Shown one piece after another: positions 7,055-32,000 of a stretch of 32,000 nt of DNA. How positions within the stretch are numbered: position 1 is the first letter of the stretch; each line of letters starts with the position of its first letter. The notes under the pieces were generated by a model. That model was not told the origin of the DNA and did no database searches. It was given only the letters and a program-made list of their open reading frames with translations. Both the position numbers and the translations under genes were made by a program. Source of the stretch: Okeania sp. (GTDB lineage: Bacteria > Cyanobacteriota > Cyanobacteriia > Cyanobacteriales > Microcoleaceae); assembly GCF_035285525.1 (NCBI RefSeq), contig NZ_JAYKGW010000235.1:28317-60316 (forward strand). The letters are read 5' to 3'.

Positions 7055-7316
7055 ACTTGATTTTATATATAAAAATAATTAATTTTCATTATTATACAGA
7101 TTTTCCTTGATATTTGCTGAGTATAAATTTATGTGTTTATTAAAAGCAGAAATTACTAATAGATATTTCCAGGGAACAGGGAACAGGTATGGAGGGAATA
7201 GGTATGGAGGGAATAGTTGGAAAAGTGTTTTCTAGTCTAAAAGCCATCATCAGTCGATGTCCTAATTGCCTTGTCGGTTGCTATACTTTTTGATTACCCG
7301 TAACCTATTTAGGGTT

Positions 7317-7554
7317 TGCTGATTTATCGGGAACCGTAAAAGTCTTTTTTAAGGGTAGGGATGTTGTATGCAACGTCTTTACGGAAGCGCTTGAGTAGGG
7401 AGTAGTTAAGAGTTAGGAGAAACGCGGAGTTGTACAAAAGGTAGTCATTCTTAGTTTCTCCTTATTTTTTCTGTCATAATTACCCTAAAATCCTTACTTT
7501 TTCCTCTCCATAAACCGAAAATTTGGTACTTTTGCGGTTCCCGATAAATCAGTA
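7317..7554. mobile_element. Palindromic element split by insertion of a second repeat (nested MITEs)
   Basis: tgctgatttatcgggaaccgtaaaagt (7317-7343) matches the reverse complement of acttttgcggttcccgataaatcagta (7528-7554) at 25/27 positions. The 184 bp between them carries sequences of the family seen at 88-525 (aagggtaggg..., gagtagggagtagttaagagttaggagaaac). Confidence 0.55.
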
Positions 7555-7713
7555 CCTAAAATTATTCAAACCTTTATTGAATAGTGCTTTCCTCTTTAAT
7601 CAGCTAACCCTATTTAGGATTGCTATATTAGGAATTATTCACTAACACAAGAAACCGAATTTATGCAGGAAATTCTGGGGAATAAACCAGGTTTCTGCAT
7701 AGGTAATTTCTAA

Positions 7714-8826
7714 CTAACTAAAATAACTTTTGACAATCTTGATAATTCTCTCCGAGGCATAACCATCACCAAAGGGATTAACTGCCATTGCCATTTCTTT
7801 ATATTTGCTAATATCACTCAATAATTCTCCAGCAGCAGTCACAATATTATTCGTATTAGTACCAACAAGTTTAGCAGTTCCCGCCATTATTGCTTCTGGT
7901 CTTTCTGTTGTTTCTCGTAATACTAAAACTGGCTTACCCAAACTAGGAGCTTCTTCTTGTAAACCCCCAGAATCAGTTAATATTAAATAAGAATTTTGCA
8001 TAGCTCCTACTAATTGACTATAATCAAAAGGTTCTTCTAAAAATACTCTTGGATGATTCCCTAAAATTGCTTTTAAAGGTTCCCTAACTGTGGGATTTTT
8101 ATGGAGAGGTAAAACTAAAGCAGTGTCAGGAAATTTATCTAGAATTTGCAAAAATGCTTGAGCAATTTTTTCTAAAGGTTCTCCCCAATTTTCTCGCCGA
8201 TGAACTGTTGCTAATATTACTCGATATTTAATCCAATCTAAACCATTAATCTGACATTGAGGTTGAGATTTTGCTACTTTTAACAAAGCATCAATTACCG
8301 TATTTCCTGTTTGATGAATTTCTCCTATGACCCCTGATTTTTGTAAATTTTCCATAGCCAAATTTGTAGGAGCAAAATGTAATTGAGCTATCTGAGAAAT
8401 TAAACGACGATTGGCTTCTTCTGGATAGGGATTAAATAAGTCATTAGTTCTTAAACCTGCTTCTACATGACCAACAGGAATTTTTTGATAAAATGCAGCT
8501 AAAGAAGCAGCAAAAGCGGCGCTAGTATCTCCCTGAACTAATACTAATTGAGGTTGCAATTGGAGAAATAATTCTTCTAGTCCTTGTAAACTTCGACACA
8601 GAATATCTGTCAATGTTTGTCTAGTTTGCATAATTGCTAAATCTTGGTTAGCTTTAATATTAAATAATTCCATTACTTGGGTAACCATTTCTTTATGTTG
8701 ACCAGTCAAAATTACCAGGGTATCAAAATTAGGAGAACTTTGAAAAGTTTGGATAACTGATGCTAATTTGATAGCTTCGGGGCGAGTTCCTAAAGTGATT
8801 GCTACTCGAATAGGAGTGTTGGGCAT
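7714..8826 (-). CDS. wecB: UDP-N-acetylglucosamine 2-epimerase (non-hydrolysing)
   Basis: 370-aa ORF with GTRPEAIKLA, VLVQGDTSAAFAASLAAFYQKIPVGHVEAGLRT, HRREN, LTDSGGLQEEAPSLGKPVLVLRETTERPE. This is a classic WecB/MnaA signature. Confidence 0.93.
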   Translation of the reverse strand: MPNTPIRVAITLGTRPEAIKLASVIQTFQSSPNFDTLVILTGQHKEMVTQVMELFNIKANQDLAIMQTRQTLTDILCRSLQGLEELFLQLQPQLVLVQGDTSAAFAASLAAFYQKIPVGHVEAGLRTNDLFNPYPEEANRRLISQIAQLHFAPTNLAMENLQKSGVIGEIHQTGNTVIDALLKVAKSQPQCQINGLDWIKYRVILATVHRRENWGEPLEKIAQAFLQILDKFPDTALVLPLHKNPTVREPLKAILGNHPRVFLEEPFDYSQLVGAMQNSYLILTDSGGLQEEAPSLGKPVLVLRETTERPEAIMAGTAKLVGTNTNNIVTAAGELLSDISKYKEMAMAVNPFGDGYASERIIKIVKSYFS

Positions 8827-9410: not shown

Positions 9411-9960
9411 TACCTAAATAGACATCTGCAAAAATCAAAAATATAATCCATTATTATATATAAATCATCAATTAGTCCCCCTGTTCCCTGTTTCCTAAAA
9501 AAGCTTTATTAGTTGAGGTCAATTGTATCTTACTATCAAAACCGACTTTAAGGGTTATATTCTTCATTTAAAGCCATTTTTAGGTTTAGATAAGGTCAGC
9601 TCTCAGTAATAATATCTAAATCTTAAGAAATAGCCGTAAACAGACTTTTCCAAAAATTAAAAATATAATCAATTCTTATCCATAAATAATCAATTACTCC
9701 CCCATTCCCTGTTCCCTAAAAAAAGCTTTATTATTCGAGGTCAATTGCATCTTACTATCAAAGCCGATTTTAAGGGTTATATTCTTCATTTAAAGCCATT
9801 TTTAGGTTTAGATAGGGTCAGCTCTCAGTAATAATATCTAAGCCTTAAGAAATAGCCGTAAATAGAAATCTGCAAAAATCAAAAATATAATTAATTCTTA
9901 TCTATAAATCATCAATTACTGCCCCTGTTCCCTGTTTCCTGTTCTCTGTTCCCTCTTTTC
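9411..9960. repeat. Tandem repeat, period ~222 bp, about 2.4 copies
   Basis: ctgcaaaaatcaaaaatataat... starts at 9425 and 9870, with a diverged copy at about 9647. Each unit contains ctgttccctgtttcct, gaggtcaattg.atcttactatcaaa.ccga.tttaagggttatattcttcatttaaagccatttttaggtttagata.ggtcagctctcagtaataatatctaa. Confidence 0.85.
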
Positions 9961-10107: not shown

Positions 10108-11640
10108 ATGAATGGACAAAAATCACATAATACTTCACCTACTATAATGGTGGTAGATGACCAAGAATATATGCGTTATTTGCTGTCTAGAGCTTTAAAA
10201 TTAGAAGGGTATGAGATAATAGAAGCAAGTAATGGCAAAGAATGCCTGGAAAAATGTAGCACTCAAATACCAGATTTAATTTTACTAGACCTAATGATGC
10301 CAGAAATGGATGGTTTTAATTGCTGTGTTAAATTGCAAAAACTTTTTAACGAGAGTTTATCAAATAATTTTTGTCTTGGGAACCTAGATAGCAACCCTTT
10401 AATTTATCAAACTCCATTATTAATAATCACTTCTCTTGAAGATAAAGAATCTGTTGATTTAGCTTTTAAAGTTGGGGCAATGGATTATATTACTAAACCA
10501 ATTAAATTGACAGTTTTACTGAAGCGAGTTCATCGAATTTTGCAAATTAATGAAGTGGTAAAAGAATTAAGGCAGCAAACAGAAAATGCCAAATTTATGA
10601 GTTTTATTCAAGAACGGATACGTCAATCATTACAACTTGATGAAATTCTAAAAACTACAGTAGATGAAGTCAGAAGTTTTCTGAAAACTGACAGAGTATT
10701 TATATATAAATTCAAGCCTGATGGAACAGGAGAAGTAGTTATGGAATCTGTGAGTTTTTATCAAACATCTGTTCTAGAAAGCATGAATAAATTTAGTAAT
10801 AATGGACATAATAAATTGGCAGATAAAGAAGATATACCTATTGCAGATCTAATTCCATATCATGTTAAATTTCTGACTCAGTTTCAAGTAAAGGCTAACT
10901 TAGTAGTACCAATATCAAAGATTAATACAGAACAAAAATCTGCAGAAGATTTTGATTATACTCAAGAACAATTGTGGGGATTATTAATTGTTCATCACTG
11001 TTCAGAACGAAGAAAATGGCAGCCTTTAGAAATTGAATTTCTGGAACGTTTAGCTGGACAGTTAGCGATCGCTATTCAACAATCAGAAATATATCAAAAA
11101 TTAGTAATTGCTAATCAAAAGTTAGTTGAATTTGCCAACTATGATAGTTTAACTAAGGTTGCTAACCGTCGTGTATTTGAAGAATATATGGATAAAGAAT
11201 GGCAACGTATGGCAAGGGAAAAAACACCAATGACTTTGATTTTATGTGATGTTGACTATTTCAAAGGTTACAATGATACTTATGGTCATTTAGCAGGAGA
11301 TAGATGTCTGCAAACTATTGCTAATGTAATTAAAACAGAAGTTAAGCGACCGGCAGATTTAGTTGCACGTTACGGTGGGGAAGAATTTGTAATTGTATTA
11401 CCTCTAACAACTGCTCAAGGTGGATTTGATTTAGCAGAATTAATTCGTCAGCGACTTTTAGATTTAAAATTAGTTAATTCTGGTTCCAAAATATCAGAAT
11501 TTGTTACTCTTAGTTTAGGTGTAGCAAGCACTATTCCTTTATCAGAAGTTTCCTGGGAAAAATTAGTAAAAATAGCAGATAAAGCCCTTTATAAAGCAAA
11601 GGAAGAAGGACGTGATCGCGTAATTATTAAAAATTTTTAA
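10108..11640 (+). CDS. Response regulator receiver (REC) - GAF - GGDEF diguanylate cyclase
   Basis: 510-aa ORF. REC motifs are VVDDQ and DLILLDLMMPEMDG ... ITKP. The central region is GAF-like (DRVFIYKF...WGLLIVHHC). The GGDEF domain has RPADLVARYGGEEF, i.e. an RxxD I-site five residues before GGEEF. Confidence 0.9.
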   Translation: MNGQKSHNTSPTIMVVDDQEYMRYLLSRALKLEGYEIIEASNGKECLEKCSTQIPDLILLDLMMPEMDGFNCCVKLQKLFNESLSNNFCLGNLDSNPLIYQTPLLIITSLEDKESVDLAFKVGAMDYITKPIKLTVLLKRVHRILQINEVVKELRQQTENAKFMSFIQERIRQSLQLDEILKTTVDEVRSFLKTDRVFIYKFKPDGTGEVVMESVSFYQTSVLESMNKFSNNGHNKLADKEDIPIADLIPYHVKFLTQFQVKANLVVPISKINTEQKSAEDFDYTQEQLWGLLIVHHCSERRKWQPLEIEFLERLAGQLAIAIQQSEIYQKLVIANQKLVEFANYDSLTKVANRRVFEEYMDKEWQRMAREKTPMTLILCDVDYFKGYNDTYGHLAGDRCLQTIANVIKTEVKRPADLVARYGGEEFVIVLPLTTAQGGFDLAELIRQRLLDLKLVNSGSKISEFVTLSLGVASTIPLSEVSWEKLVKIADKALYKAKEEGRDRVIIKNF

Positions 11641-11645
11641 ATTTT

Positions 11646-11866
11646 GGTATTTAAGCTTTAGTTTGGTAACACAACCTTCCCAGTTGTTACAGCTACCGAA
11701 GGCTGTGTGACAAATAATAATTTTAGTATTTAAGCTTTAGTTTGGTAAGACAACCTTCCAGGTTGTTACAGCTACCAAAGGCTGTGTTACAGGGGATAGA
11801 GATTAATCTTCAAAAGTTTGGTAATACAACTTTCCAAGTTGTTACAGCTACCGAAAGCTGTGTGAC
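11646..11866. repeat. Three tandem copies (~78-79 bp spacing) of a hairpin-forming repeat tttggtaa.acaaccttcc.ggttgttacagctacc.aaggctgtgt.ac
   Basis: Copies lie at about 11646-11711, 11725-11790 and 11815-11866, immediately after the GGDEF gene stop. Copy 2 contains the perfect hairpin acaacc-ttcca-ggttgt. The same family occurs in inverse orientation at 31600-32000. Confidence 0.75.
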
Positions 11867-11886
11867 AATTGAACATTCCTTCTTTT

Positions 11887-17060: not shown

Positions 17061-17137
17061 TTAAAGAACCTCACAAGTTTATGAATGAGTTTAGCATTAT
17101 TGATTTTAGCATTAAACAGGACTTACCCAGGGTGAAG

Positions 17138-17305
17138 CCAGAAACCCGGTTTTTTTTCGTAAGTCCTAATTCAACTTAATATTTCAGGTAAAAGTCTTGG
17201 GTTAAAGAAATAAATTCTCAACCCAGAAACCGGGTTTCTTTTCGTAAACCCTAATTCAACTTAATATTTCAGGTAAAAATCTTGGATTAAAGAAATAAAT
17301 TCGGG
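17138..17305. repeat. 85-bp tandem duplication that includes the last ~14 codons of trmN6 plus 3' flank
   Basis: ttaatatttcaggtaaaagtcttgggttaaagaaataaattc starts at 17176. ttaatatttcaggtaaaaatcttggattaaagaaataaattc starts at 17261 and is the real gene end. Both are preceded by ccagaaacc.ggttt...cgtaa..cctaattcaac. Confidence 0.8.
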
Positions 17306-18197: not shown

Positions 18198-19688
18198 ATG
18201 GTAACAGAAAAAATTCTCAAACAAGACACCCAAAAGACAATAGAAACAGAAACATTTCAGTGGACAAAACAATGGTATCCAGTAGCAGTTGTAGACCACA
18301 CTGACTCATCTCGACCATATCCATTTCAGCTACTGGGGAAAAATTTAGTTCTGTGGCAGAATAATAGTGGAAAATGGTCTTGCTTTGAAGATGTTTGTCC
18401 TCACCGACTCGTTCCTTTTTCCGAAGGTAGAGTAGAATCAGATGGAACTCTGATGTGTGCATACCACGCTTGGCGCTTTAACTCCGAGGGCAAGTATGTC
18501 AGCATTCCTCAGTCTAAAAATAAAGAAACCGAAGCCAAAAATTGTGCTGACAGTAAATCTTGTGCTATTGTCTATCCCACCCAGGAACGTCAAGGTTTAC
18601 TTTGGGTATGGGCAGAATCTGGAGAACAAGCTCAGGTAGAAAGTCAGTTACGGGAACCCAGGGTTATTCCTGAACTAGAAAACCCATCAGACAAAGTTGT
18701 GAAACTATATTGGAGTATGCGCGAACTTCCCTACGGTTGGGATTTATTTATGGAAAATGTTTCAGATCCAGCTCATGTTCCAGTTTCCCACCACGGAATA
18801 ATGGGTAGCAGATATGATGAGGATAAATATTATGACATGATTCCAGTGAGGAAATTTTCTACCCAGGAAGGTTTCTCTTTTGAAATCAGACCAATAAAAG
18901 TACCTGGTATGAAACAAGCTATCCATGATTTTCAACCACCTTGTCACATGAGAATTTTCACTGAACTTGAGGGTGGTGGAAAATCCATTTTGGCTTTGTA
19001 TGCTAGTCCTTCTCGGCCTGGTTGGTGTCGAACTATTGGATGTCAGGTGTTTGTAAAAGATGACCAAGGAAAACGAGCGAAAGGTTTAGGATTCTTTGGT
19101 TTGCCAATGCCTGAATGATTGAGTCATGTATTAGGTCCTATATTTTTACACCAAGATTTGGTCTTTCTTCATTATCAGGAGAAAATCCTAGCAAGGCAAC
19201 AGCAAGGAAAATATCTAGATATGATTTATACGCCTAATCCTCAAGATAAAATGGTGATTACATTCCGCAGATGGTTGGAGAAATCTGCTGGAGGTGGGAT
19301 ACCTTGGAGTCAAGAATGTAATCCCGAAATACCACTACCAGAATATGACAAACGTAAGCTTTTTGATGTTTGGGAAACTCACACGAAACATTGTCTGACT
19401 TGTCAGAATGCACTGAAAAATATTAATCGCTTCAAAATTTTGACCTACGTTTTGGCAGCGTTATGTTTGTGTTTGGGGATAATTATTGATGCACGGACGA
19501 TCGCTATTCAAGTAGCTACAGCAGCAGTAACTGAAACGGCAACTTCTGTTTCTGGTTTGGCATTGCCTCCACTAGGATTTTGGTTGGCGGTTGGAGGTGC
19601 AGCTTTATTTGCTTTCGGTGGATATAAGTTGCAACAGTTGACTAGATTGTTTTATGTTTATGAGTTTGAACACGCAGATAATGATTAA
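18198..19688 (+). pseudogene. Rieske [2Fe-2S] / pheophorbide-a-oxygenase (PaO/Tic55) family oxygenase interrupted by a single in-frame TGA (19116-19118)
   Basis: ORFs 18198..19118 and 19119..19688 are in the same frame and are separated only by TGA. Part 1 has the Rieske motifs CPHR...CAYHAWRF and a non-haem iron region (NVSDPAHVPVSHH). Part 2 has the PaO-domain segment LHYQE...ITFRRWL, the CxxC motif (HCLTCQ) and C-terminal TM helices. The sum of 496 codons is typical for the family. Confidence 0.8.
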
Positions 19689-21519: not shown

Positions 21520-22977
21520 ATGAAAAAAATTAATCGCCGAAATTTTTTAATCCTAAGTTATAGTAGTATCATTGCTACTTTAATGTCTCAATGTCGGATA
21601 GCCAATACTCAAGAAAATCAACAAAATTTTTCATCATATTCTCAAATTAATCAGAGCCAAGATGGAATTTTAGAACTTGATTTAACAACTAATTTGAATC
21701 GAATAAATCTGGGAAATAAACCAGCTTATCTACTAAATTATAACGGACAAATTCCCGGACCAAGACTAGAAGCAAAACCAGGAGATACTATTAAAATTAA
21801 TTTCACTAACAATCTCCCCCAACCCACAAATATTCATTACCACGGACTGCATATTCCCATTACCGGAAACGCCGATAACGTCTTTCTGAATATTCCATCA
21901 GGCGATCGCTTTACATATCAATTCCAAATTCCGGAAAATCATCCTGCTGGAATGTTCTGGTATCATCCACATCTACATGGTTTTGTAGCAGAACAATTAT
22001 TTGGTGGGTTGGCGGGATTATTTATTGTTCGGGGAGAGTTAGATGAAATTCCAGAAGTGAAAGCTGCTGACGAACAATTTTTAGTATTGCAAGATTTTGC
22101 CTTAGACAAAAAAGGAAATATGCTCCCATCCCAGGAACTCTCAATAATGACGGGAAGGGAAGGAAATTTGATTACTGCTAACGGTCAACTTACCCCTAAT
22201 TTTGCCATTTCTGCTCAAGGTTTATTACGACTACGAATCCTGAATGCTTCCACTTCCAGATTTTATCGGTTGTCTCTAGAAGAACATCCATTTTATCTCA
22301 TCGCTACTGACGGAGGTGCATTAGCTGAACCCTTAGAAATGTCAGAACTGTTACTGACTCCTGGAGAACGTGCAGATGTATTAGTCCGAGCTAACCGAGA
22401 ACCAGGAAAATATCGTTTGCTAAATTTGCCTTACGAACGAGTGGGTATGGGTATGATGGGAGGAGGGATGATGGGGAGAAATATTCCTGAAAATCAACCG
22501 CAAGTATTAGCAACAGTCAGTTATGACAAACAGGTTGCTGCTGTACCACTGCCAACAAAACTAATCCCAGTTCCATCATTGCCAGAACCTGAAAAAGTGC
22601 GTCGTTTTCAAATGAATCATGGCATGATACCCGGTCAAGGAATGGCGTTTTTGTTTAATGGTGAGTCATATCAACCAGAAAGAATTGATACTCAAGTTCA
22701 GCTCAATACTCTTGAAGACTGGGAATTAATAAATACAGGCATTATGGATCATCCCTTTCATGTTCATGGCAATGCTTTTCAAGTTTTGAGTCGGAATGGT
22801 AAACCAGAAACTTATCGCGCTTGGAAAGATGTGGTTTTGGTGAGAGCGGGGGAAACAGTTTTAATGCGGATGCCTTTTCGAGATTTTGCTGGAAAGACTG
22901 TTTATCATTGTCATATTCTTGACCACGAAGATTTGGGAATGATGGGAAATTTGGAGATTATAGGTAAACCGCTGTAG
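21520..22977 (+). CDS. Multicopper oxidase (CueO/CopA-like) with Tat signal peptide
   Basis: 485-aa ORF. It has the twin-arginine motif NRRNFL. The copper ligand motifs are HYHGLH, WYHPHLHG, HPFHVHG and HCHILDHEDLGMMG. It also has the Met-rich loop GMGMMGGGMMG. Confidence 0.92.
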   Translation: MKKINRRNFLILSYSSIIATLMSQCRIANTQENQQNFSSYSQINQSQDGILELDLTTNLNRINLGNKPAYLLNYNGQIPGPRLEAKPGDTIKINFTNNLPQPTNIHYHGLHIPITGNADNVFLNIPSGDRFTYQFQIPENHPAGMFWYHPHLHGFVAEQLFGGLAGLFIVRGELDEIPEVKAADEQFLVLQDFALDKKGNMLPSQELSIMTGREGNLITANGQLTPNFAISAQGLLRLRILNASTSRFYRLSLEEHPFYLIATDGGALAEPLEMSELLLTPGERADVLVRANREPGKYRLLNLPYERVGMGMMGGGMMGRNIPENQPQVLATVSYDKQVAAVPLPTKLIPVPSLPEPEKVRRFQMNHGMIPGQGMAFLFNGESYQPERIDTQVQLNTLEDWELINTGIMDHPFHVHGNAFQVLSRNGKPETYRAWKDVVLVRAGETVLMRMPFRDFAGKTVYHCHILDHEDLGMMGNLEIIGKPL

Positions 22978-23001
22978 GAACGTTGCATGCAACGTTCCTA
23001 C
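22974..23001. repeat. 28-nt perfect palindrome gtaggaacgttgcatgcaacgttcctac (member of the gtagggacgtt...aacgtccctac family), possible terminator hairpin
   Basis: It is a perfect inverted repeat that includes the multicopper oxidase stop codon TAG (22975-22977). Related hairpins lie at 12765-12802, about 7352-7382 and 26005-26088. No T-run follows it. Confidence 0.8.
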
Positions 23002-23119
23002 AAAACAAGGCCGAACAAAGCCATTTTTTTGCCTAAATTCAATATTGTTGGGTTGCGCTTTCGCTTAACCCAACCTACAATATAAATATTGATATCAAAG
23101 ATTATTTGAGGTAATCGTT

Positions 23120-23677
23120 ATGAAAAAGTTTTTTTCTAATAGGATGCAGTCTCTAATTATTGGTGTAGGGGTTGCTGGAGTTTTAGGAGCAGCATATTTT
23201 TCTTTCATCGTTTTGCCACAAAACTCCGCCGTTAGTACCGCAACCCAGAATGTTGCAAATTCTGGTTCACCTACAACAAATTTAGCACCAGAAGCACTGA
23301 ATATTACTGTTTACCGCACTCCTACTTGTGGATGCTGTAAGGGTTGGGTGGAACATATTCAGAAAAATGGTTTTCAAGTAACCGATATTGTCAAACCTGA
23401 GTCAGAAATTCAAACTATTCGCCAGAAATATAATTTGCCTTCAGATTTGACATCTTGCCACACCAGTGAAATTGGGGGTTATCTTGTCGAAGGTCATATT
23501 CCAGTGGCAGATGTGAAACGTTTAATTGCCCAGAAACCAGATGTTGCTGGAATTAGTGTTCCCGGAATGCCTATTGGTACTCCGGGTATGGAAATGGGCG
23601 ATCGCCAACAATCTTTTGATGTATTTGCCTTTGAAAAAGATGGTCAGACTAGAGTTTTTAATTCTTATAAATTCTAG
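23120..23677 (+). CDS. DUF411 (CopG-like) metal-binding protein
   Basis: 185-aa ORF with a signal/TM helix, then TCGCCKGW, SCHT, GYLVEGHIP and GISVPGMPIGTPGME. This is the characteristic DUF411 motif set found in copper-resistance loci. Confidence 0.85.
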   Translation: MKKFFSNRMQSLIIGVGVAGVLGAAYFSFIVLPQNSAVSTATQNVANSGSPTTNLAPEALNITVYRTPTCGCCKGWVEHIQKNGFQVTDIVKPESEIQTIRQKYNLPSDLTSCHTSEIGGYLVEGHIPVADVKRLIAQKPDVAGISVPGMPIGTPGMEMGDRQQSFDVFAFEKDGQTRVFNSYKF

Positions 23678-23985
23678 AATATTGACTTAATCAAGGAATA
23701 AAGGTATAGTGCTTTATAAAAAGACTTATGCACTAAATTAGGGATGACGCAAAGGCACTATATAATATAGCGCATAGGTGCGTTAGCGAAGCGTAACGCA
23801 CCCTACTAATAGCGTTCATGGCTTTAGTCCTATTTATATTATCGGCAATGTATTCTCCCTGTTCCCACCTTCTGTGTTCCCTGTTCCCTGCGCGTAGCGC
23901 TATAATAAACAGAAAATTCTGATGGTTCAATACTCTGGTATAGTAATACATATCTAACACAATTAGAAAATTTTTTTAATCAACA

Positions 23986-24633
23986 ATGATGAAATTATTT
24001 ACTGTTGGTCATTCCAATCATTCTATCGAATTTTTTTTAAGTCTTTTACAAAAACATCAAATTACAACTGTGGCAGATGTTCGTTCTTTTCCTTATAGTA
24101 AGTATTCACCTCATTTTAATCAAAAAAATATTCAGCAATCTCTACAGGAAATCAATATTTCATACATTTTTTTAGGCAAAGAATTAGGTGCTAGAACTAA
24201 TGATTTAAGTTGCTATGTTAATGGCAAAGCTTTATATGAATTAATTGCTCAGACAGAAGATTTTAAAAAAGGTTTAGAAAGAGTTTATCAAAGTTGGGAA
24301 AATCATAATAATATTGCTTTAATGTGTTCTGAACAAGACCCCATTACTTGTCATCGTGCTATTTTAGTGAGCCGAAATTTAAAAAATCAAGGTTTAGATA
24401 TTTATCATATTCTTAAAAGTGGTGAATTAGAAAATCACTCCGATTTAGAAAAAAGACTATTAGAGATTAATAATCTTGTAGAAAAGCCTCAGTCATTTTT
24501 ACAATTAAGTCTTTTTGATACTGAAAGCTTCAGTCAAAATGTTACGCAATCTACTCAAGATTCTGAATATACGAAACTTGAAAAAGCTTACAAAATTCAA
24601 GGGGATAAAATTGCTTATGTAAACAAAAAATAA
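23986..24633 (+). CDS. DUF488 domain-containing protein (with ~70-aa C-terminal extension)
   Basis: 215-aa ORF. LFTVGHSNHSIEFFLSLLQKHQITTVADVRSFPYS and CSEQDPITCHRAILV match the DUF488 (YeaO-like) pattern. Confidence 0.8.
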   Translation: MMKLFTVGHSNHSIEFFLSLLQKHQITTVADVRSFPYSKYSPHFNQKNIQQSLQEINISYIFLGKELGARTNDLSCYVNGKALYELIAQTEDFKKGLERVYQSWENHNNIALMCSEQDPITCHRAILVSRNLKNQGLDIYHILKSGELENHSDLEKRLLEINNLVEKPQSFLQLSLFDTESFSQNVTQSTQDSEYTKLEKAYKIQGDKIAYVNKK

Positions 24634-24790
24634 TGTAAGCAATCAGCCTTTAGCTCTTAATAAACCTTGACTAAGAATTAAGGTATGATTAATGATTATT
24701 TCATTCATTTTTATTGCTGTTTGCGTAGCATTCATCCGGAATAGTTGACAGCTAATGGGTTAATTTTTACTTAGTTAGGAATTAAATAAA

Positions 24791-25237
24791 ATGGAAAAAA
24801 CTATTGAACTTTTTACAATTGGATTTACGAAAAAAACGGCTCAAGACTTTTTTGAAAACCTCACAAAATCAAAAGTAAAATGCCTTATTGATGCAAGATT
24901 TAATAATGTTTCTCAACTTGCCGGATTTGCCAAAAGAAAAGATTTAGAATATTTTCTCAAAGTTATTTGCGATATTGAATATATTCATATTCTAGATTTA
25001 GCACCTACTAAAGAACTTTTAGATGATTATAAAAAAAAGAAAATTACTTGGGATACTTATGAACAAAATTTTAATAATCTGATGAAAGAAAGAGAAATTG
25101 AAAAAAAGGTTTCACCTCAACTTTTAGACCGAGGTTGTTTACTTTGTAGTGAAGCTAAACCACATTATTGTCATCGTCGTTTAGTCGCTGAATATCTTAA
25201 TCAACAATGGGGAAATATTAAAGTATGTCATCTCTAA
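24791..25237 (+). CDS. DUF488 domain-containing protein (short paralog)
   Basis: 148-aa ORF. LFTIGFTKKTAQDFFENLTKSKVKCLIDARFNN and CSEAKPHYCHRRLVAEYL show the same DUF488 motifs, but it is highly diverged from the upstream copy. Confidence 0.8.
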   Translation: MEKTIELFTIGFTKKTAQDFFENLTKSKVKCLIDARFNNVSQLAGFAKRKDLEYFLKVICDIEYIHILDLAPTKELLDDYKKKKITWDTYEQNFNNLMKEREIEKKVSPQLLDRGCLLCSEAKPHYCHRRLVAEYLNQQWGNIKVCHL

Positions 25238-25899
25238 AAAAAATAATTTGTTTGGCTAATTCCTACAAACAAAATGAGCGTTGTATAGCAGGAATTGATT
25301 TAGATACAGGAAAATGGATTCGTCCAATATGCGATCGCCAATTTCCTGAAGATGGAAGAGTACCTTTAAGAATTAGACTTGTGGAACATGGAGAACCAAA
25401 ACCTCTTGATATTCTGGAAATTCCTCTTGATAATAAAGGAAATGATTTTGGTTTTGAAAGTGAAAACTTTTCAGTATTAAAAGGTAAATGGAAATGTTTA
25501 GGTAAAGCTAAAGTTGAGGATATATTTCCATACTGTAATAATTCAGAATATATCCTACATAATAATCGTAAATATATTTATCCTTCTTATCTAAAAAGAG
25601 TTCCCTGGCATCTACGTCGAACAATTGAAATTGTTAAAGTTAAAAAGCATAATTTTTCTTTTGTTCAAGATAAAAGAGGGAAATTTCGAGGTAGTATTAA
25701 AAGTAATCATGGTTATTGGCTTTTAAATAATGCAAAAATTACCGATCCAGAGTTTATGAAAAACTTAGAAAATGGATATTCTCCAACTGCAAATAATCTT
25801 TTGGTTACTGTTAGTTTGAGTCTGCCTTATGCTCCTGAAGATTGGGAAGGTGAAGCTCCTTGTTGGAAGTTAATAGCAAATATTATTGAATTTGATTAG
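25225..25899 (+). CDS. Uncharacterised Cys-rich protein, translationally coupled to the second DUF488 gene
   Basis: 224-aa ORF whose ATG lies 13 nt inside the end of the preceding gene. It has the N-terminal motif CLANSYKQNERCIAGIDLDTGKWIRPIC and the C-terminal motif APCWKLIANIIEF. I cannot assign a characterised family. Confidence 0.6.
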   Translation: MSSLKKIICLANSYKQNERCIAGIDLDTGKWIRPICDRQFPEDGRVPLRIRLVEHGEPKPLDILEIPLDNKGNDFGFESENFSVLKGKWKCLGKAKVEDIFPYCNNSEYILHNNRKYIYPSYLKRVPWHLRRTIEIVKVKKHNFSFVQDKRGKFRGSIKSNHGYWLLNNAKITDPEFMKNLENGYSPTANNLLVTVSLSLPYAPEDWEGEAPCWKLIANIIEFD

Positions 25900-26120
25900 T
25901 TGAAAAATTAAGGAATGAAAATTATATCATTTCCGGATAATTAGCGAGCCAAAAAACTTGCTCCTTTTTATACCTTAAAACTTCTTCTTCTCTTCTAATT
26001 TTGTAGGGACGTTCCACTGGCAAAAATGCTTTTTCCTAAGGTTATGCTCTGCATTTCATGTCCGCTCTTAGGGGAAAACGTCCCTACAACCTAAAACAAC
26101 CTGCTTTTTAATGCTTACAT

Positions 26121-26456
26121 TTAATTGTTAGCATAACGAGTAAATTGTCGTTTAAAAGAAGAATGAAAACCAATGACAATATCAGTAGGAGGTACACCCA
26201 TCTCTTCTAACCTTTCAGCAACAGACTCTTCTGTACCATTATATTGAATCCAAATTTTACCATCAATAATATCAAGGTGCATTACAGCACCAAATATTCG
26301 TTTATCTCCTCGCCAACCGATATAAGCTAATTGATAATGGTCCCGTTCTGTATCAAATATTAGTTCATCTTTGACTGTATCATTAGTATTGGCTATTTCC
26401 GCATGGGAAGTCAAAATTTCCCGAACAAGTTGTCGATATTTTTCTAATTTATCCAT
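26121..26456 (-). CDS. xisI: XisI (fdxN element excision controlling factor-like) protein
   Basis: 111-aa ORF. MDKLEKYRQLVREILTSHAE...DHYQLAYIGW...MHLDIIDGKIWIQYNGTE...GVP..DIV is the typical XisI family pattern. Confidence 0.85.
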   Translation of the reverse strand: MDKLEKYRQLVREILTSHAEIANTNDTVKDELIFDTERDHYQLAYIGWRGDKRIFGAVMHLDIIDGKIWIQYNGTEESVAERLEEMGVPPTDIVIGFHSSFKRQFTRYANN

Positions 26457-26860
26457 TCAGAAATTACCTCTAATTTAGGATTATAAATAATTAGTTTGAC
26501 TTGATAACGTTTCAGAGAACGTTGGATAAAAGGAAGCTGAAAAAAATTTTGATAAGCTTCTACAGGAATAGCTAAATAAACAATTCTGTCTGCTTCTTGT
26601 TCTTCAAGTGCTTGACAATAATTAAGATATTGACCTAAAGCAGTATGAAATGAGCTAATATCTGAATCTGCAATAAAACTTTTAATTTCTACAGCAATTT
26701 TTTCAGAACCTTTTTCTGCTGCAATAGCATTTTCTGCTGCTAAATCAATATGTAATTTGACAGCTTCACTAATTCTAATTGTAAAAGGATCGTGAGTAAT
26801 ATTCCATCCATCTTTGATTAAAGAATTTTTAACCTGTTGATGAAAAATGTCTTTTGCCAT
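26444..26860 (-). CDS. xisH: XisH (fdxN element excision controlling factor-like, endonuclease-fold) protein
   Basis: 138-aa ORF. MAKDIFHQQVKNSLIKDGWNITHDPFTI...DLAAE...IAVEIKSF is the typical XisH pattern. It overlaps xisI by 13 nt. Confidence 0.85.
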   Translation of the reverse strand: MAKDIFHQQVKNSLIKDGWNITHDPFTIRISEAVKLHIDLAAENAIAAEKGSEKIAVEIKSFIADSDISSFHTALGQYLNYCQALEEQEADRIVYLAIPVEAYQNFFQLPFIQRSLKRYQVKLIIYNPKLEVISEWIN

Positions 26861-27180: not shown

Positions 27181-28255
27181 TTATAATTTTGACACTAAAT
27201 ATTTGACGTTTTCGACAGCTTCTTTATATCTATGTTTAGCCAATTTAATATTTTTTCCATCTGGCATTATAAAAGTTTCTCCTTGGTCAGGAAGTTGATG
27301 TAAAGGAATGCCAAGAGATGCAGAGACTTTTCCTGAAGAATGAAAATCTTTGACATTGGTAACATAAGCAGTTTGCCATCCACTGAGACAATCTAATGAA
27401 TTATTATTCTTAGTAAAATGTTCAGCAAATTTTTGATATTGTTCATAGCAAAAACTAATTAATTCTTCTCTAATTGAATTATAAGCATTAGCTACACCTT
27501 TATTGCTTGTGTAATTATTAAAAACAAATTGTTTTATTTTAGGTAATTTAAGCTCGAATCGCTGAACTTGTTTATTAAATGTGACAATATCACTCGCATA
27601 TTTTTTGAGAGATTCTGAAGGATATTGTTCATAAAGTAACATTAAAATCCCTTTAATTCCTTCTAATGAAGTAAAATCAGCCATCATAGGAATTATTAAA
27701 TAATCAGAAGAAAGTAACGCCATCTGTGTATAGATAGAAAAGCTAGGATTACAATCTATAAAAACAACTAACTCTTTGTATTTTTTCTTGTCAAATTCAC
27801 TTTGACATAATCTTTGTATTGCTGTCATGTAATCTTTCCATGCTGAAATTTTTGCTGGATTAATTACGGCATAATTAAGAGCTAAAGATAAAGATTCTAA
27901 AAAAGAATCACCAGCAATTAAATACAGATTTTTTTGGAATATGCTCATTATAGAGAGACGCTCGAACTTTATAAGTAGAATTTAATGATTTAAAGTCAGC
28001 ATTACCTTTCAAAATCCAATCAACAAAACCTACTACATTACGTCTTGAATAAGCTGATTGTAACTTTTGATTATTATCATATCCTTCCTTTCCGCCTCCA
28101 AGCAAAAATTGAGATATATTAGCTTGAGGACACATATCAATAACTAAAATTTGCTTCTCTGGATTTTGTTCAGCATACAATATTGAAGCATTGGAACATA
28201 AAGTTGTTTTACCAACACCACCTTTATTATTGTAAAAAGCATAAACTTTTGTCAT
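27181..28255 (-). pseudogene. ParA/MinD-superfamily ATPase disrupted by a +1 frameshift in an A7 run (T7 at 27939-27945 on the + strand)
   Basis: ORF 27908..28255 carries the deviant Walker A motif YNNKGGVGKTT. ORF 27181..27948 continues with NLYLIAGD...FIDCNPSFS...IIPMMADFTSLEG. Deleting one A from CCAAAAAAATCTG joins them as ..NEHIPKNLYLIAGD.. to give about 357 aa. Confidence 0.8.
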
Positions 28256-28477: not shown

Positions 28478-30754
28478 CTATAGATTTATTTTTGGTCTAA
28501 ATTTTCTCAAACGTAAAGCATTTGTCACTACAGAAACCGAACTAAATGCCATTGCTCCTCCAGCAATAATTGGATTTAATAACCAACCTGTTAAAGGATA
28601 CAAAATACCGGCAGCAATAGGAATACCTAATACATTATAAATAAAGGCAAAAAACAGATTTTGCTGAATATTTCTCATTGTCGCCCGACTCAATTTAATT
28701 GCCGTAATAATACCACTTAAATCTCCAGAAATTAAAGTAATATCACTAGCAGCGATCGCTACGTCTGTTCCTGTTCCAATGGCTATTCCGACATCTGCTT
28801 GAGCTAATGCTGGAGCATCATTTATTCCATCTCCTACCATTGCCACAATTTGATGATTATCGGTTCTTTTTTTCTTTTCTAATTGCAGATTTTTGACAGT
28901 TTCAGCTTTTTGTTCTGGCAGCACTTCAGCAAATATTCTATTAATGCCAACTTCGGCAGCAATAACTTCTGCTGTTTGCCGATTATCTCCGGTTAACATG
29001 ACAACTTCTATTCCCATTTTTTGTAATGTTTGAACTACCTTTTTTGAGGATGATTTTAAAGTATCGGCTATACCAAATATTCCTTCAATTTTTCCATCAA
29101 CTGCTATCCAAGCAGTAGTTTTACCATCAGCTTCTAATTTATTTTGATTAGTTTGGAAATTACTAATCTCAATTCCTAATTTATTCATCCATCTAAAAGT
29201 ACCAATTTGTACTAATTTATCAGAAACAATTCCTTCTACTCCCATTCCCGAAATTGCCTCAAATTTTTCTGGTTCTGCTAAAGGAAATTCTATCCCTTGA
29301 GTTTGAGCATATTCAACAATAGCTTCTGCCAAAGGATGTTCTGATTTTCTCTCAACTGCTGCTGCTATTTTTAACAAATTAATTTCATTTTCATTGCCAA
29401 TTCCTTGAGTAGTTATATAATTAGTAACTTTAGGTTTTCCTTCGGTAAGTGTACCTGTTTTATCCAAAATAATTGCCTGAACTTGATGAGCAACTTCTAA
29501 ACTATCAGCACCCTTAATTAATATTCCATTTTCTGCACCTTTTCCAGTTGCCACCATCACAGAAGTAGGAGTAGCTAATCCCAAAGCACAAGGACAAGCA
29601 ATAATTAAAACACTAACAGTTGTAATTAACGACATAGTTAAATTTCCAGTCAAACTAAACCAGATAAAAAAAGTAGCGATCGCTATTCCCATAACAACAG
29701 GAACAAACCAAGAAATTACCATATCTGCTAATTTTTGAATTGGTGCTTTAGAACTTTGTGCCTGTTGAACTAATTTAATTATTTGAGCTAATACTGTATC
29801 TTTTCCAATTCTAGAAGCTTCAAATTTAAAACTACCAGTTTTATTAATTGTCGCCCCAATAACTTCATCCCCAGATTGTTTTTCTACAGGCAAACTTTCA
29901 CCAGTCACCATAGATTCATCTACTGTAGAATTACCTTTTTTTATTATTCCATCTACAGGAATTTTTTCCCCAGGGCGCACCACAATTAAATCGCCAATTT
30001 TTACTTGTTCAATAGGAATATCTATTTCTTTTTCCTCCCGAATAACTCTAGCAGTTTTTGCCTGTAAACCTATTAATTTTTCAATAGCTGCTGAAGTTTG
30101 TTTGCGAGCGCGATGTTCCAGAAGTCTGCCTAATAAAATTAGAGTAATAATAACCGCAGCAGCTTCATAATAAACATCAGGATTTAATCCTTGTCTAGTA
30201 AAAAAATCAGGAAAAAATGTTGGAAATAAAGAATATAAATAAGCTGCCCCCGTACCCAGGGCAACCAAAGTATTCATATCTACGGAATAATTTTTTAATC
30301 CTTTAAAAGCAGCAATAAAAAATGAAATACCGCACCAAAACATAACAGGAGTAGTTAATATTAATTGTAGCCAAGAATTATGTAACCATATTGGAATCCA
30401 AGGAATATTTAATCCAGTCATCATTGGCAACGAACCAATAATTAAAATTCCACTAATAACACCACCAAAAATTACTTTATTTGTCATTTCTTGTTCTAGA
30501 CGGCGATTTTCTCTCTCTTTTTCCGCCAGATTTATTGTTTGCTGAAGTGGTGTTGCTTCAAAACCAATATTTGTTACAGACTGTTGAATTTTGTGTAAAT
30601 TTGTTTGGTGAGAATTATACTTAACCGTTGCTTGTGCCATAGCAAAATTAACTTGACATTCTGCCACACCAGGTACATTTGTAATAGCTTTTTCAACTTT
30701 ATTAGCACAGCCAGCACAACTCATACCTTTTAGTTCTAAATATGTTATTTTCAT
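28478..30754 (-). CDS. Copper(I)-translocating P1B-1-type ATPase (CopA/PacS/CtaA-like)
   Basis: 758-aa ORF. It has an N-terminal HMA domain ([14 protein letters not shown]), TGES, CPC in TM6 ([11 protein letters not shown]), DKTGTLT and [10 protein letters not shown]. It also has the Cu(I) signatures YN-x4-P (YNVLGIP) and M-xx-SS (MAFSS). Confidence 0.95.
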
Positions 30755-30813: not shown

Positions 30814-31130
30814 AAAAATCTTGCTTTATCTACGTTTTAGGCTGTTGATCTGTCCTAACCTTTGCTTCGACTACTATGAAGAAATATATTTACCGAAGAA
30901 TTAATAATTAAATAATTAAATAATTGAATAATTCAGGTTTAAAGCCTCCCCTTTGAAGGGGAATAAAATAAATTTTTTCCTTTGATTCAATCTTCTTCCT
31001 TTTCGGGAGAGGTAATTATCAATTATCCATTATCAATTATCTATTATTGAAAGCGGGTTCCACCTTGTTGAGGTATACCCACGGGGGCAAGATGCCCGCT
31101 ACTTGTCAACATTTAATTATTAATTATCTG

Positions 31131-31420
31131 TATCTTTAGAGGGCAAATAGCATTTGCCCCTACAAAATATTGTAAATTTATTAGGGCTTACGGAAATTCT
31201 GAAGTAATACCCTATCTTTAGAGGGCAAATGCCATTTGCCCCTACAAAATATTGTAAATTTATTAGGGCTTACGGAAATTCTGAAGTAATACTCTATCTT
31301 TAGAGGGCAAATGCCATTTGCCCCTACAAAATATTGTAAATTTATTAGGGCTTACGGAAATTCTGAAGTAATACTCTATGTTTAGAGAGCAAATGGCATT
31401 TGCCCCTACAAAATATGGTA
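31131..31420. repeat. Tandem repeat, period 82 bp, ~3.5 copies, each with a 19-bp palindromic core gggcaaatgccatttgccc
   Basis: Unit starts (tatctttagagggc / tatgtttagagagc) lie at 31131, 31213, 31295 and 31377. Whole units are repeated, so there are no unique spacers. Only the central bases of the palindrome vary (tag/tgc/tgc/tgg). Confidence 0.9.
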
Positions 31421-31492
31421 GTTTTGCGTAAATCTTAATCGTAAACTCTCAAGTTAACTTTAGATTCAAGTATAACTAAAGTCAAAATAGTT

Positions 31493-32000
31493 GCTACAAT
31501 TAATTTTATATTATATCCGTTAATCTCGGAGTGTATAAAAGTTAGGGAAATATATGTAGATATTTACAGCAATGCATGAGGATATTGAGGTAAAGTTATT
31601 TGCAGTTTAAGTATCCTGCTTCTTACAGCCTGGAAGGCTGTGTTACCAAAATTACTAACACAATTCTAGTCTTTATGAGGTCAAGTTATTTGCAGTTTAA
31701 GCATCCTGCTTCTTACAGCCTAGAAGGCTGTGTTACCAAAATTATTAACACAATTCTAGTCTTTATTTTGCACCTCACTAACTTGGAAATTGCTGTAATA
31801 TTCTTCCTTCTTTCTTACTTCTTACTTAATAAAACTGCTACAATTAATTTTATATTATATCGGTTAATATCGGAGTATATAAAAGTTAGGGAAATATATG
31901 TAGATATTTACAGCAATGCATGAGGATAGTGAGGTCAAGTTATTTGCAGTTTAAGCATCCTGCTTCTTACAGCCTAGAAGGCTGTGTTACCAAAATTACT
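31493..32000. repeat. Compound repeat: 343-bp period containing a 90-bp sub-repeat, running off the window end
   Basis: gctacaattaattttatattatat... starts at 31493 and 31836. ttatttgcagtttaag.atcctgcttcttacagcct.gaaggctgtgttaccaaaatta starts at 31597, 31687 and 31940. Confidence 0.8.

What the first reader, a model, noticed from the sequence alone, without database searches (positions are those of the whole stretch)
23986..25899. DUF488 - DUF488 - Cys-rich unknown: a co-directional, translationally coupled three-gene cassette with no assigned function
Seen in the sequence:
- There are two highly diverged DUF488 paralogs. Their motifs are LFTVGHS...VADVRSFPYS...CSEQDPITCHR and LFTIGFT...LIDARFNN...CSEAKPHYCHRR.
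- A 224-aa ORF follows, and its ATG sits 13 nt inside the end of the second paralog.
- That third protein has a distinctive N-terminus (CLANSYKQNERCIAGID..GKWIRPIC) and C-terminus (CWKLIANIIEF) that I cannot place in any characterised family. I vaguely recall similar N-termini annotated as a 'dual OB' type domain, but this is unverified.

Established knowledge: to my knowledge DUF488 (the E. coli YeaO family) has no experimentally defined activity.

Inference: paralog duplication, coupling and a position in an AT-rich accessory patch suggest a self-contained accessory module. The patch also holds xisHI, a decayed ParA gene and MITEs. The module might be nucleic-acid or nucleotide directed and possibly conflict/defence related.
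Basis: partly seen in the sequence, partly recalled or inferred. Interest (0 to 1): 0.78.

Follow-up and report, generated by a model that had tools for sequence, protein, structure and literature searches.

The report
DUF488–DUF488–DuOB candidate DNA-conflict cassette
Three adjacent genes (two cysteine-motif enzymes of unknown activity plus a double-OB-fold, DNA-binder-like protein) form a widely conserved module that is already listed as an untested candidate anti-phage system, so the finding is real but not new.

Summary
Three co-directional ORFs lie at 23986-24633, 24791-25237 and 25225-25899. The first two are DUF488 paralogs that are 25% identical. The third overlaps the second by 13 nt.

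The third protein is not unplaceable. It matches Pfam DuOB (dual OB-containing domain) over its full length, E 4e-40. The second gene is the "active DUF488-N3a" subclade. All three match the three components of PADLOC's phage-defence candidate PDC-M45.

The linkage is not chance. Of 80 genome loci found with DuOB, 78 carry the same three genes in the same order. Planctomycete-type contigs do too. Other loci permute the order or swap the first DUF488 for mSLOG::DUF4326 or an HNH protein.

Relatives are embedded in type I R-M (with an HsdS::DUF488 fusion) and in BREX. DuOB is also fused to a RecQ helicase within the same cassette.

AlphaFold models give a tandem OB fold and a Rossmannoid fold with a PTP-like Cys loop. 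Neither has a close PDB relative.

The best reading is a DNA-directed conflict module: DuOB binds DNA and the DUF488 enzymes process DNA termini. No experiment was found. In this window the cassette sits among copper genes, not in a defence island. I file it as a new member of a known, uncharacterised candidate kind.

The parts
23986..24633 (+). orf1: DUF488 protein (215 aa), PDC-M45B type. DUF488 domain at about residues 1-140, plus a conserved C-terminal tail of about 75 aa. Motifs TVGHS, DVR and C114-S-E-x5-C122-H-R124.
   Evidence: Pfam DUF488 E 1.3e-22; DUF488-N3a reaches only 23.9 bits against a cutoff of 27. PADLOC PDC-M45B E 1e-71. Motif residues are conserved in 79 orthologous loci.
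24634..24790 (+). 157-nt spacer between orf1 and orf2. It is not conserved, and in most relatives the two genes overlap.
   Evidence: With longest-ORF starts, orf1 and orf2 overlap in 74 of 79 loci. One weak promoter-like match lies at 24667-24696 and there is no terminator-like site.
24791..25237 (+). orf2: DUF488 of the 'active N3a' subclade (148 aa), PDC-M45C type. It is the most conserved component and the constant partner of DuOB. C119 ends a beta-strand, followed by the loop SEAKPHY, then C127-H128-R129 at the start of a helix.
   Evidence: Pfam DUF488 E 1.4e-22 and DUF488-N3a 45.3 bits against a cutoff of 27. PADLOC PDC-M45C E 2.8e-69. AF2 model pLDDT 88.8 with strand 115-119 and helix 128-140. 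Invariant residues are listed.
25225..25237 (+). 13-nt overlap of the orf2 stop region with the orf3 start (ATGTCATCTCTAA).
   Evidence: The same -13 overlap occurs in 13 other loci, and orf2/orf3 overlap in 43 of 79 loci.
25225..25899 (+). orf3: DuOB (dual OB-containing domain) protein, 224 aa, PDC-M45A type. It is the predicted DNA-binding subunit.
   Evidence: Pfam DuOB E 4.2e-40, full length. PADLOC PDC-M45A E 1.3e-24. AF2 pLDDT 96.2, pTM 0.92, mostly beta-strand with short helices. Weak fold matches to HIN-200 tandem-OB DNA binders, LEF-3 and SSBs.
25943..25962 (+). Terminator-like hairpin plus T-run downstream of orf3. It is the only such site in 23600-26200.
   Evidence: This is a consensus match only: 1 site found against 1.2 expected in shuffles.

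Best explanation
The cassette is a three-component, DNA-directed conflict module of defence type. It is the DUF488-DUF488-DuOB gene-order form of the system that PADLOC lists as candidate PDC-M45.

Proposed working:
- The DuOB protein, a compact tandem OB fold with invariant Trp, Arg and Lys residues, binds single-stranded DNA, DNA ends or similar DNA structures. It acts as the targeting subunit.
- DuOB brings in the two DUF488 enzymes: the constant 'active N3a' paralog and a second, exchangeable paralog.
- Both paralogs keep a Cys-loop-His-Arg centre on a Rossmannoid fold of the protein-tyrosine-phosphatase/rhodanese type.
- They are inferred to carry out cysteine-dependent phosphoryl or sugar-phosphate chemistry on DNA termini or DNA adducts. 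This would make invading or cleaved DNA unusable. In variants it would hand the DNA to fused effectors (RecQ helicase, Vsr-like endonuclease) or cooperate with type I R-M or BREX.

Shown: family membership, conserved linkage, the fusions, embedding in defence systems in relatives, and the predicted folds.

Inferred: DNA binding, complex formation, the chemistry, and the anti-phage or anti-plasmid role.
For: - All three proteins hit the three PDC-M45 components and Pfam DUF488, DUF488-N3a and DuOB.
- Linkage: 78 of 80 genome-scan loci plus an Okeania contig have orf1-type, orf2-type and DuOB on one strand, mostly overlapping. The same trio occurs in Phycisphaerae- and Planctomycete-type contigs.
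- In IMG/VR loci the order is DuOB first, yet the genes stay linked. Linkage that survives rearrangement argues for a joint function.
- DNA direction: DuOB::RecQ helicase sits in the third position of the same cassette. DuOB::DUF559/MTES_1575 endonuclease fusions exist. An HsdS::DUF488 fusion lies between HsdM and HsdR.
- The cassette lies between BrxC (and PglX) and PglZ/BrxL in BREX loci.
- DuOB model: pLDDT 96. Its only fold matches are DNA-binding OB proteins such as HIN-200, LEF-3, SSB and ExoVII.
- orf2 model: the best PDB hit is a protein tyrosine phosphatase, followed by PRL phosphatases and methylase N-domains. Cys119 ends a strand and C127-H-R starts the next helix.
- PDCs were defined by embedding in BREX, DISARM or type I R-M systems.
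Against: - No experiment on DuOB, DUF488 or PDC-M45 was found.
- In this window the neighbours are copper-homeostasis genes, xisHI and a broken parA. None hits PADLOC except a lone small methyltransferase 6 kb away.
- Among 145 immediate neighbours of cyanobacterial cassettes there is no recurrent partner, and only a minority are defence-like.
- In Phycisphaerae the cassette is syntenic between a fucose isomerase gene and clpB. The proteins are well conserved, with orf2 at a median 66% identity across cyanobacteria. Both points fit a stable chromosomal function as well as defence.
- Fold matches are weak: E no better than 2e-3 and TM 0.3-0.5.
- The Cys-to-Arg spacing is not the canonical CX5R.
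Confidence: 0.55

Rival explanations
1. A chromosomal DNA repair or maintenance operon rather than an immune system. DuOB recognises damaged or single-stranded DNA. The DUF488 pair cleans up blocked termini, for example 3'-phosphate or sugar-phosphate remnants, for the host's own benefit.
For: - The cassette has a stable position in related genomes: after the multicopper oxidase and DUF411 genes in both the window and Okeania, and between a fucose isomerase gene and clpB in three Phycisphaerae-type contigs.
- Neighbours are mostly housekeeping genes.
- Sequence conservation is high, with orf2 at a median 66% identity.
- The RecQ fusion fits repair as well as defence.
Against: - Distribution is patchy: 303 of 185,579 species genomes matched the search pattern used.
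- Relatives are embedded inside type I R-M and BREX operons, with an HsdS fusion.
- Partners are exchangeable (mSLOG::DUF4326, HNH, WD40, kinase), and one DuOB sits next to an AAA_21 ATPase and a CHAT-TPR protein. This is typical of conflict systems.
- Distant relatives occur on IMG/VR contigs that carry terminase genes.
Confidence: 0.25
2. A nucleotide or ADP-ribose-derivative processing module. The DUF488 enzymes act on small-molecule sugar-phosphates such as signals or NAD-derived products. DuOB serves as a sensor or regulator rather than a DNA-targeting subunit.
For: - In five loci the second DUF488 is replaced by an mSLOG::DUF4326 fusion.
- DUF4326 was proposed to process terminal phosphates on ribose of ADPr-derived molecules (Viruses 2022, PMC9503650).
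Against: - The fusions of DuOB and DUF488 are to DNA-handling proteins: RecQ, a Vsr-like endonuclease and HsdS.
- No cyclase, TIR, or other signal-generating enzyme recurs next to the cassette.
Confidence: 0.1
3. The adjacency is coincidental, or the genes are decaying remnants with no joint function in this genome.
For: - This region contains broken genes: a split parA and a Rieske/PaO gene with an in-frame stop.
- orf1 is separated from orf2 by an unusual 157-nt spacer.
Against: - All three ORFs are intact and full length against their profiles.
- Catalytic-motif residues are conserved.
- The trio recurs in 78 of 80 loci and across phyla.
- The same sequence appears in an independent assembly.
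Confidence: 0.03

Closest known systems
PADLOC phage-defence candidate PDC-M45 (components A, B, C), from the guilt-by-embedding survey of Payne et al., bioRxiv 10.1101/2024.01.29.577857
   Same: All three window proteins match the three component models: B at 1e-71, C at 2.8e-69 and A at 1.3e-24. The genes are adjacent and on one strand. Relatives are embedded in type I R-M and BREX, which is how PDCs were defined.
   Different: The gene order here is B-C-A (DuOB last), whereas the six three-gene IMG/VR loci, including the BREX-embedded ones, have A-B-C. The window copy is not embedded in or next to any defence system. PDC-M45 itself has no published test that I could find.
DUF488-N3a, DUF488-N3i and DuOB Pfam families. 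[quoted passage not shown]
   Same: orf2 passes the N3a model and orf3 passes the DuOB model. DUF4326, from the same proposed clade, substitutes for the first DUF488 in some loci. The fold search on orf2 returns PTPs and methylase N-domains.
   Different: The paper could not be read here. Only its existence was checked, so the correspondence to its predicted systems rests on memory. orf1 matches neither N3a (below cutoff) nor N3i (no hit).
E. coli YeaO (stand-alone DUF488)
   Same: It shares the same Pfam domain. It also has no defined activity. A yeaO deletion skews CRISPR spacer acquisition towards insG, a DNA-related hint (bioRxiv 10.1101/2024.05.24.595836).
   Different: To my recollection YeaO is a single small gene without a DuOB partner; its genomic context was not examined here. 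The window has two diverged paralogs plus DuOB.
Protein tyrosine/dual-specificity phosphatases and rhodaneses (Cys P-loop enzymes)
   Same: The fold is Rossmannoid. A Cys sits at the C-terminal end of a central strand, followed by a loop and a helix that begins with His-Arg. The top PDB fold hit is a PTP.
   Different: The spacing is C-x7-C-H-R, not C-x5-R. There is a second conserved Cys and a conserved Glu. Structural matches are weak (E 8e-3, TM 0.37). No activity is known.
HIN-200 domains (AIM2, IFI16, p202) and SSB/LEF-3 OB-fold DNA binders
   Same: Two OB folds sit in one compact domain. These are the best, though weak, structural matches.
   Different: There is no detectable sequence similarity. 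TM is 0.3-0.36. DuOB has its own invariant residues (S13, C20, R33, E80, N81, W89, S197, K215). DNA binding is untested.

Membership tests
Pfam DUF488 (PF04343) | Score above the gathering threshold (22.2 bits) over most of the 121-position profile | tested here: met
   orf1 scores 81.1 bits over profile positions 2-118. orf2 scores 81.1 bits over positions 2-121.
Pfam DUF488-N3a, active N3 subclade (PF22751) | Score above the gathering threshold (27 bits) | tested here: met
   Met for orf2 (45.3 bits), which scores only 16.1 bits against N3i. Not met for orf1 (23.9 bits), which is therefore a different DUF488 clade.
Pfam DuOB (PF22557) | Full-length match above 27 bits, and a two-OB-fold architecture | tested here: met
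   138.5 bits over profile positions 1-210 of 210. The AF2 model is mostly beta-strand with pLDDT 96.2. Fold hits are tandem-OB or OB proteins.
PADLOC PDC-M45 | All three components (A, B, C) present and adjacent | tested here: met
   A at 1.3e-24, B at 1e-71, C at 2.8e-69. The genes are contiguous on the + strand. PADLOC's own system-calling rules were not run.
PADLOC PDC-M45 | Found embedded in BREX, DISARM or type I R-M (the basis for candidate status) | tested here: not met
   Not met for the window copy, which is flanked by multicopper oxidase, DUF411, xisHI, parA fragments and a Cu-ATPase. Met in relatives L087/L088 (type I R-M) and L091/L092 (BREX).
PADLOC PDC-M45 / antiviral defence system | Confers protection against phage or other mobile elements | not testable with these tools
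   No experimental report was found. Most PDCs are unvalidated.
Rhodanese / protein-tyrosine-phosphatase superfamily | Catalytic Cys at the end of a central beta-strand, followed by a phosphate-binding loop and a helix with a conserved Arg | tested here: met
   In orf2, strand 115-119 ends in C119 and helix 128-140 starts with H128-R129. C119, S120, E121, P124, C127, H128 and R129 are invariant across 43 sequences that include orf1.
Rhodanese / protein-tyrosine-phosphatase superfamily | Canonical C-x5-R signature and significant structural similarity | tested here: inconclusive
   The spacing is C-x7-C-H-R. The best PDB hit is a PTP, but at E 8e-3 and TM 0.37, and no hit reaches E<=1e-3.
OB-fold ssDNA/dsDNA-binding proteins (SSB, HIN-200) | Binds DNA through the OB surface | not testable with these tools
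   Support is indirect only: weak fold matches, invariant W31, W89, R33 and K215, and fusion to RecQ and to endonuclease domains.
Toxin-antitoxin module | A small toxin/antitoxin pair with known TA domains | tested here: not met
   None of the three proteins hits a TA family in Pfam, NCBIfam or PADLOC.

The most novel reading that the evidence does not exclude
The DuOB-last (B-C-A) clade found in cyanobacteria and planctomycetes may not be an immune system. It could be a vertically kept DNA-end repair or maintenance pathway. In it, a heteromeric pair of DUF488 cysteine enzymes, targeted by a new tandem-OB DNA-end or ssDNA sensor, would perform a previously undescribed covalent Cys-dependent chemistry on DNA termini, such as phosphate or sugar-phosphate transfer. 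That would give the large DUF488 family, including E. coli YeaO, its first biochemical function.
Probability: 0.2. Interest if true: 0.75.

Novelty: new member of a known kind. Interest (0 to 1): 0.45.

Why it matters
DUF488 is a very large family. More than 8000 90%-identity clusters were retrieved for the N3a paralog alone. No biochemical activity was found for it in the literature searched. DuOB is a sizeable family too, with 3370 clusters at E<=1e-5, and has no solved structure.

The cassette is compact (1.9 kb), intact and strongly conserved. Its relatives are fused to or embedded in well-understood DNA machines: RecQ, HsdS and BREX. That makes it a tractable entry point for finding what DUF488 enzymes do and whether PDC-M45 is a real defence system.

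It does not reveal a new kind of system. The families and the three-gene association are already in Pfam and PADLOC.

Tried and rejected
- I tried to read Burroughs & Aravind 2023 by DOI, PMID and PMC id. It is not held, so statements about its content are from memory only.
- Literature searches for PDC-M45, DuOB, 'dual OB' and DUF488 found no experimental work.
- Sequence searches of the PDB found nothing for any of the three proteins.
- Rfam found no RNA family anywhere in the window.
- The first locus scan, with the 55-sequence alignment, failed because it had no conserved stretch. I repeated it with 12 sequences.
- My initial recollection that DUF488 belongs to the ParB/Srx fold is rejected. 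The ParB paper only lists DUF488 as a fusion partner, and the fold search gives PTP- and methylase-like Rossmannoid hits.
- The idea that orf1 is the 'inactive N3i' partner is rejected. It has no N3i hit, and its Cys, Glu, Cys-His-Arg residues are conserved.
- The idea that the cassette is a recent insertion into the copper cluster is rejected. It has the same position in Okeania.
- The idea of a conserved regulatory element in the orf1-orf2 spacer is rejected. The spacer does not align between relatives.
- Promoter-like matches are not clearly above shuffled expectation, 18 against 11.1 +/- 3.8, so I did not use them.
- Two context look-ups failed because the service was busy. One was repeated successfully.
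Full report
**Observation.** Every quoted motif is present. orf3's ATG lies 13 nt inside orf2. orf1 and orf2 are separated by 157 nt, so coupling by overlap applies only to the last two genes. The only terminator-like site in 23600-26200 follows orf3, at 25943-25962. Promoter-like matches are not clearly above shuffled expectation.

**Family assignment.**
- Both upstream proteins are DUF488: PF04343, E 1.3e-22 and 1.4e-22. They are 25% identical to each other, E 5e-6.
- orf2 also passes the Pfam model 'Active DUF488-N3 subclade' (45.3 bits, cutoff 27). orf1 does not (23.9 bits) and shows no hit to the inactive subclade.
- The third protein matches Pfam DuOB, 'Dual OB-containing domain', end to end, E 4.2e-40. 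NCBI and UniRef already name relatives 'dual OB domain-containing protein'.
- Against PADLOC-DB, the three proteins hit the three components of one candidate system, PDC-M45: B at 1e-71, C at 2.8e-69 and A at 1.3e-24.
- NCBIfam has nothing for them.

**What PDC-M45 is.** PDCs are 'phage defence candidates'. They were derived from gene cassettes found embedded inside BREX, DISARM or type I R-M operons ('guilt by embedding'), and 145 of them were added to PADLOC without testing (bioRxiv 10.1101/2024.01.29.577857). Later surveys state that most PDCs remain unvalidated (PMC12988326; PMC12881386). No paper in the library mentions PDC-M45 or DuOB as a protein domain.

For DUF488, the only functional remark found concerns E. 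coli yeaO. It has no literature, and its deletion skews CRISPR spacer acquisition towards insG.

The Pfam N3a, N3i and DuOB names come, to my recollection, from Burroughs & Aravind 2023 (NAR Genom Bioinform lqad029). That paper placed DUF488 with RapZ-C and DUF4326 in the rhodanese-phosphatase superfamily and predicted DNA-end processing in conflict systems. I could confirm that the paper exists but could not read it.

**Is the adjacency more than chance?** Yes.
- DuOB is a sizeable family: 1038 50%-identity cluster representatives at E<=1e-3 and 3370 90%-identity clusters at E<=1e-5 with a profile.
- A scan of one genome per GTDB species found 303 genomes encoding a relative. The best 80 loci are all cyanobacterial.
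- In 78 of those 80, and in an Okeania contig, an orf1-type DUF488, an orf2-type DUF488 and DuOB follow each other on one strand.
- Of the two exceptions, one match lies at a contig edge. The other (L065) is a lone DuOB next to an AAA_21 ATPase and a CHAT-TPR protein.
- With longest-ORF starts, orf1/orf2 overlap in 74 of 79 loci and orf2/orf3 in 43 of 79. Thirteen loci have the same -13 overlap as the window.
- Median identity to the window proteins across these loci is 53% (orf1), 66% (orf2) and 51% (orf3). The motif residues of both DUF488s are conserved.
- The same trio and order occur in Phycisphaerae- and Planctomycete-type contigs.

**Variants that inform function.**
- In IMG/VR contigs the order is DuOB, then orf1-type, then orf2-type (six loci). 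In five other loci it is DuOB, then orf2-type, then an mSLOG::DUF4326 fusion.
- One contig has an HNH/AP2 protein in place of the first DUF488.
- The constant core is therefore DuOB plus the N3a-type DUF488, with an exchangeable third enzyme.
- DuOB is fused to RecQ helicase (DEAD, Helicase_C, RecQ_Zn_bind, RQC/HRDC, HTH_40), to a DUF559/MTES_1575 endonuclease domain, to a Ser/Thr kinase, and to WD40 repeats.
- The RecQ fusion and a WD40 fusion both occupy the third position of otherwise identical cassettes.
- In L087/L088 the first DUF488 is fused to the C-terminus of a type I specificity subunit. The operon reads HsdM, HsdS::DUF488, N3a, DuOB, a small ORF, HsdR.
- In L091 the cassette sits between a BrxC-like protein and PglZ-BrxL. 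In L092 it follows a BrxC-sized ORF (not individually scanned) and a PglX-like methylase.

**Structure.**
- No PDB chain matches any of the three proteins by sequence.
- The DuOB model built from 60 sequences is confident (pLDDT 96.2, pTM 0.92) and is mostly beta-strand with short helices.
- Its best PDB and viral-model matches are weak (E no better than about 1e-3, TM 0.3-0.4). They are consistently DNA-binding OB proteins: HIN-200 tandem-OB domains of p202, p204, IFI16 and AIM2, baculovirus LEF-3, bacterial SSBs and the ExoVII OB domain.
- Invariant DuOB positions include S13, C20, G23, R33, E80, N81, W89, S197 and K215. W31, D62, H112, N113, T173, D174 and C213 are nearly invariant. This is more polar conservation than a generic SSB would need, so a specific ligand or end group is plausible. 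I could not map these residues in space.
- The orf2 model has pLDDT 88.8 and an alternating strand-helix (alpha/beta) fold. Strand 115-119 ends in Cys119 and the next helix starts at His128-Arg129. C119, S120, E121, P124, C127, H128 and R129 are invariant across an alignment that includes orf1.
- Fold hits for orf2 are weak (best E 8e-3). They are a Clostridioides PTP, PRL-1/PRL-3 phosphatases, and tetrapyrrole- or diphthine-synthase-type methylase N-domains. This fits a PTP/rhodanese-like Cys-loop enzyme with a non-canonical C-x7-C-H-R loop.

**Context.**
- In the window the cassette lies inside a copper-homeostasis neighbourhood. A multicopper oxidase (21520-22977) and DUF411 (23120-23677) are upstream. 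xisI/xisH, a ParA-like gene split in two, and a copper P-type ATPase (28478-30754) are downstream.
- The oxidase-DUF411-cassette order is shared with Okeania, so this is not a recent insertion.
- None of ten neighbours hits PADLOC except a lone small methyltransferase about 6 kb away.
- Across cyanobacteria, the 145 nearest neighbours fall into 169 Pfam families with no recurrent partner. Only a minority are defence-like: PIN, AAA_21, PemK, AriA and PDC-S09.
- In Phycisphaerae-type contigs the cassette is syntenic between a fucose isomerase gene and clpB.
- The defence association therefore rests on a subset of relatives, not on this locus.

**Mechanism.** The most economical model has DuOB as the DNA-recognising subunit, for ssDNA, ends or related structures. 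The two DUF488 proteins would be Cys-dependent enzymes that act on phosphate or sugar-phosphate groups at DNA termini or adducts.
- When embedded in type I R-M or BREX, or fused to RecQ or an endonuclease, the module would act on foreign or cleaved DNA.
- Family membership, linkage, fusions and folds are shown.
- DNA binding, complex formation, chemistry and biological role are inferred.
- I put about 0.8 on 'the three genes work together on DNA', about 0.5 on 'defence or conflict role' and about 0.3 on 'end-processing chemistry'.
- The main rival is a host DNA-repair function. It is favoured by the stable, non-island contexts and the high conservation. A small-molecule (nucleotide or ADPr-derivative) role is suggested by the mSLOG::DUF4326 variant, but it fits the DNA-machine fusions less well.

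**Novelty and verdict.** The families (DUF488-N3a, DuOB) and their three-gene association (PDC-M45) are already catalogued, so this is a new member of a known, experimentally uncharacterised candidate kind. The window copy belongs to the DuOB-last arrangement common in cyanobacteria and sits outside any defence island. It is a reasonable target for experiments rather than a discovery. Interest 0.45.

Noticed in passing
window 18198-19688 (+): A Rieske/pheophorbide-a-oxygenase-type gene is interrupted by a single in-frame stop at 19116-19118. The two ORFs (18198-19118 and 19119-19688) are contiguous in one frame and carry the two halves of the PaO domain. It is probably a pseudogene.
   Followed up: partly
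window 27181-28255 (-): A ParA/MinD-like ATPase is split into two overlapping ORFs, with the N-terminal P-loop part at 27908-28255 and the rest at 27181-27948. This indicates a frameshift. The same split appears in an independent Logan assembly contig, L103.
   Followed up: partly
window 21520-23677 and 28478-30754: A copper-homeostasis set (multicopper oxidase, DUF411, and a Cu P-type ATPase with an HMA domain) is separated by the cassette, xisHI and the broken parA. The oxidase-DUF411-cassette order is shared with Okeania sp. SIO2C2.
   Followed up: partly
window 26001-26089: A perfect 13-nt inverted repeat (TTGTAGGGACGTT / AACGTCCCTACAA) with a 63-nt spacer lies between orf3 and xisI. It could be a small hairpin or MITE-like element. 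No further copy came up in the window-wide repeat scan, which required repeats of at least 25 nt.
   Followed up: partly
window 9415-9940, 11640-11867, 17135-17302, 31128-31425, 31586-31765: Several intergenic tandem repeat arrays have periods of about 222, 77, 85, 82 and 90 nt. Dispersed short repeats are also present, for example the CCCTGTTCCCTG motif at 23858-23890, which is complementary to 7170-7202.
   Followed up: no
L093, L094, L095, L098, L102 (IMG/VR loci), about 6000-7800: A variant system reads DuOB, then N3a-type DUF488, then an mSLOG::DUF4326 fusion protein. Here the second DUF488 is replaced by a member of the sister family joined to a minimal SLOG domain.
   Followed up: partly
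L106 3063-7143 and L107 2784-6864: The cassette occurs as DUF488, then DUF488-N3a, then a 980-aa DuOB::RecQ helicase fusion with HRDC and HTH_40. In Pseudanabaena, L029 and L032 carry DuOB::WD40 in the same position.
   Followed up: partly
L065 1331-5986: A DuOB gene without any DUF488 neighbour is flanked by a CHAT-TPR protein and an AAA_21 (AbiEii/OLD-like) ATPase. This may be a different DuOB-based system.
   Followed up: no
window 26121-26860 (-): A xisI/xisH gene pair overlaps by 13 nt, immediately downstream of the cassette and convergent with it. Neither protein hits PADLOC.
   Followed up: no
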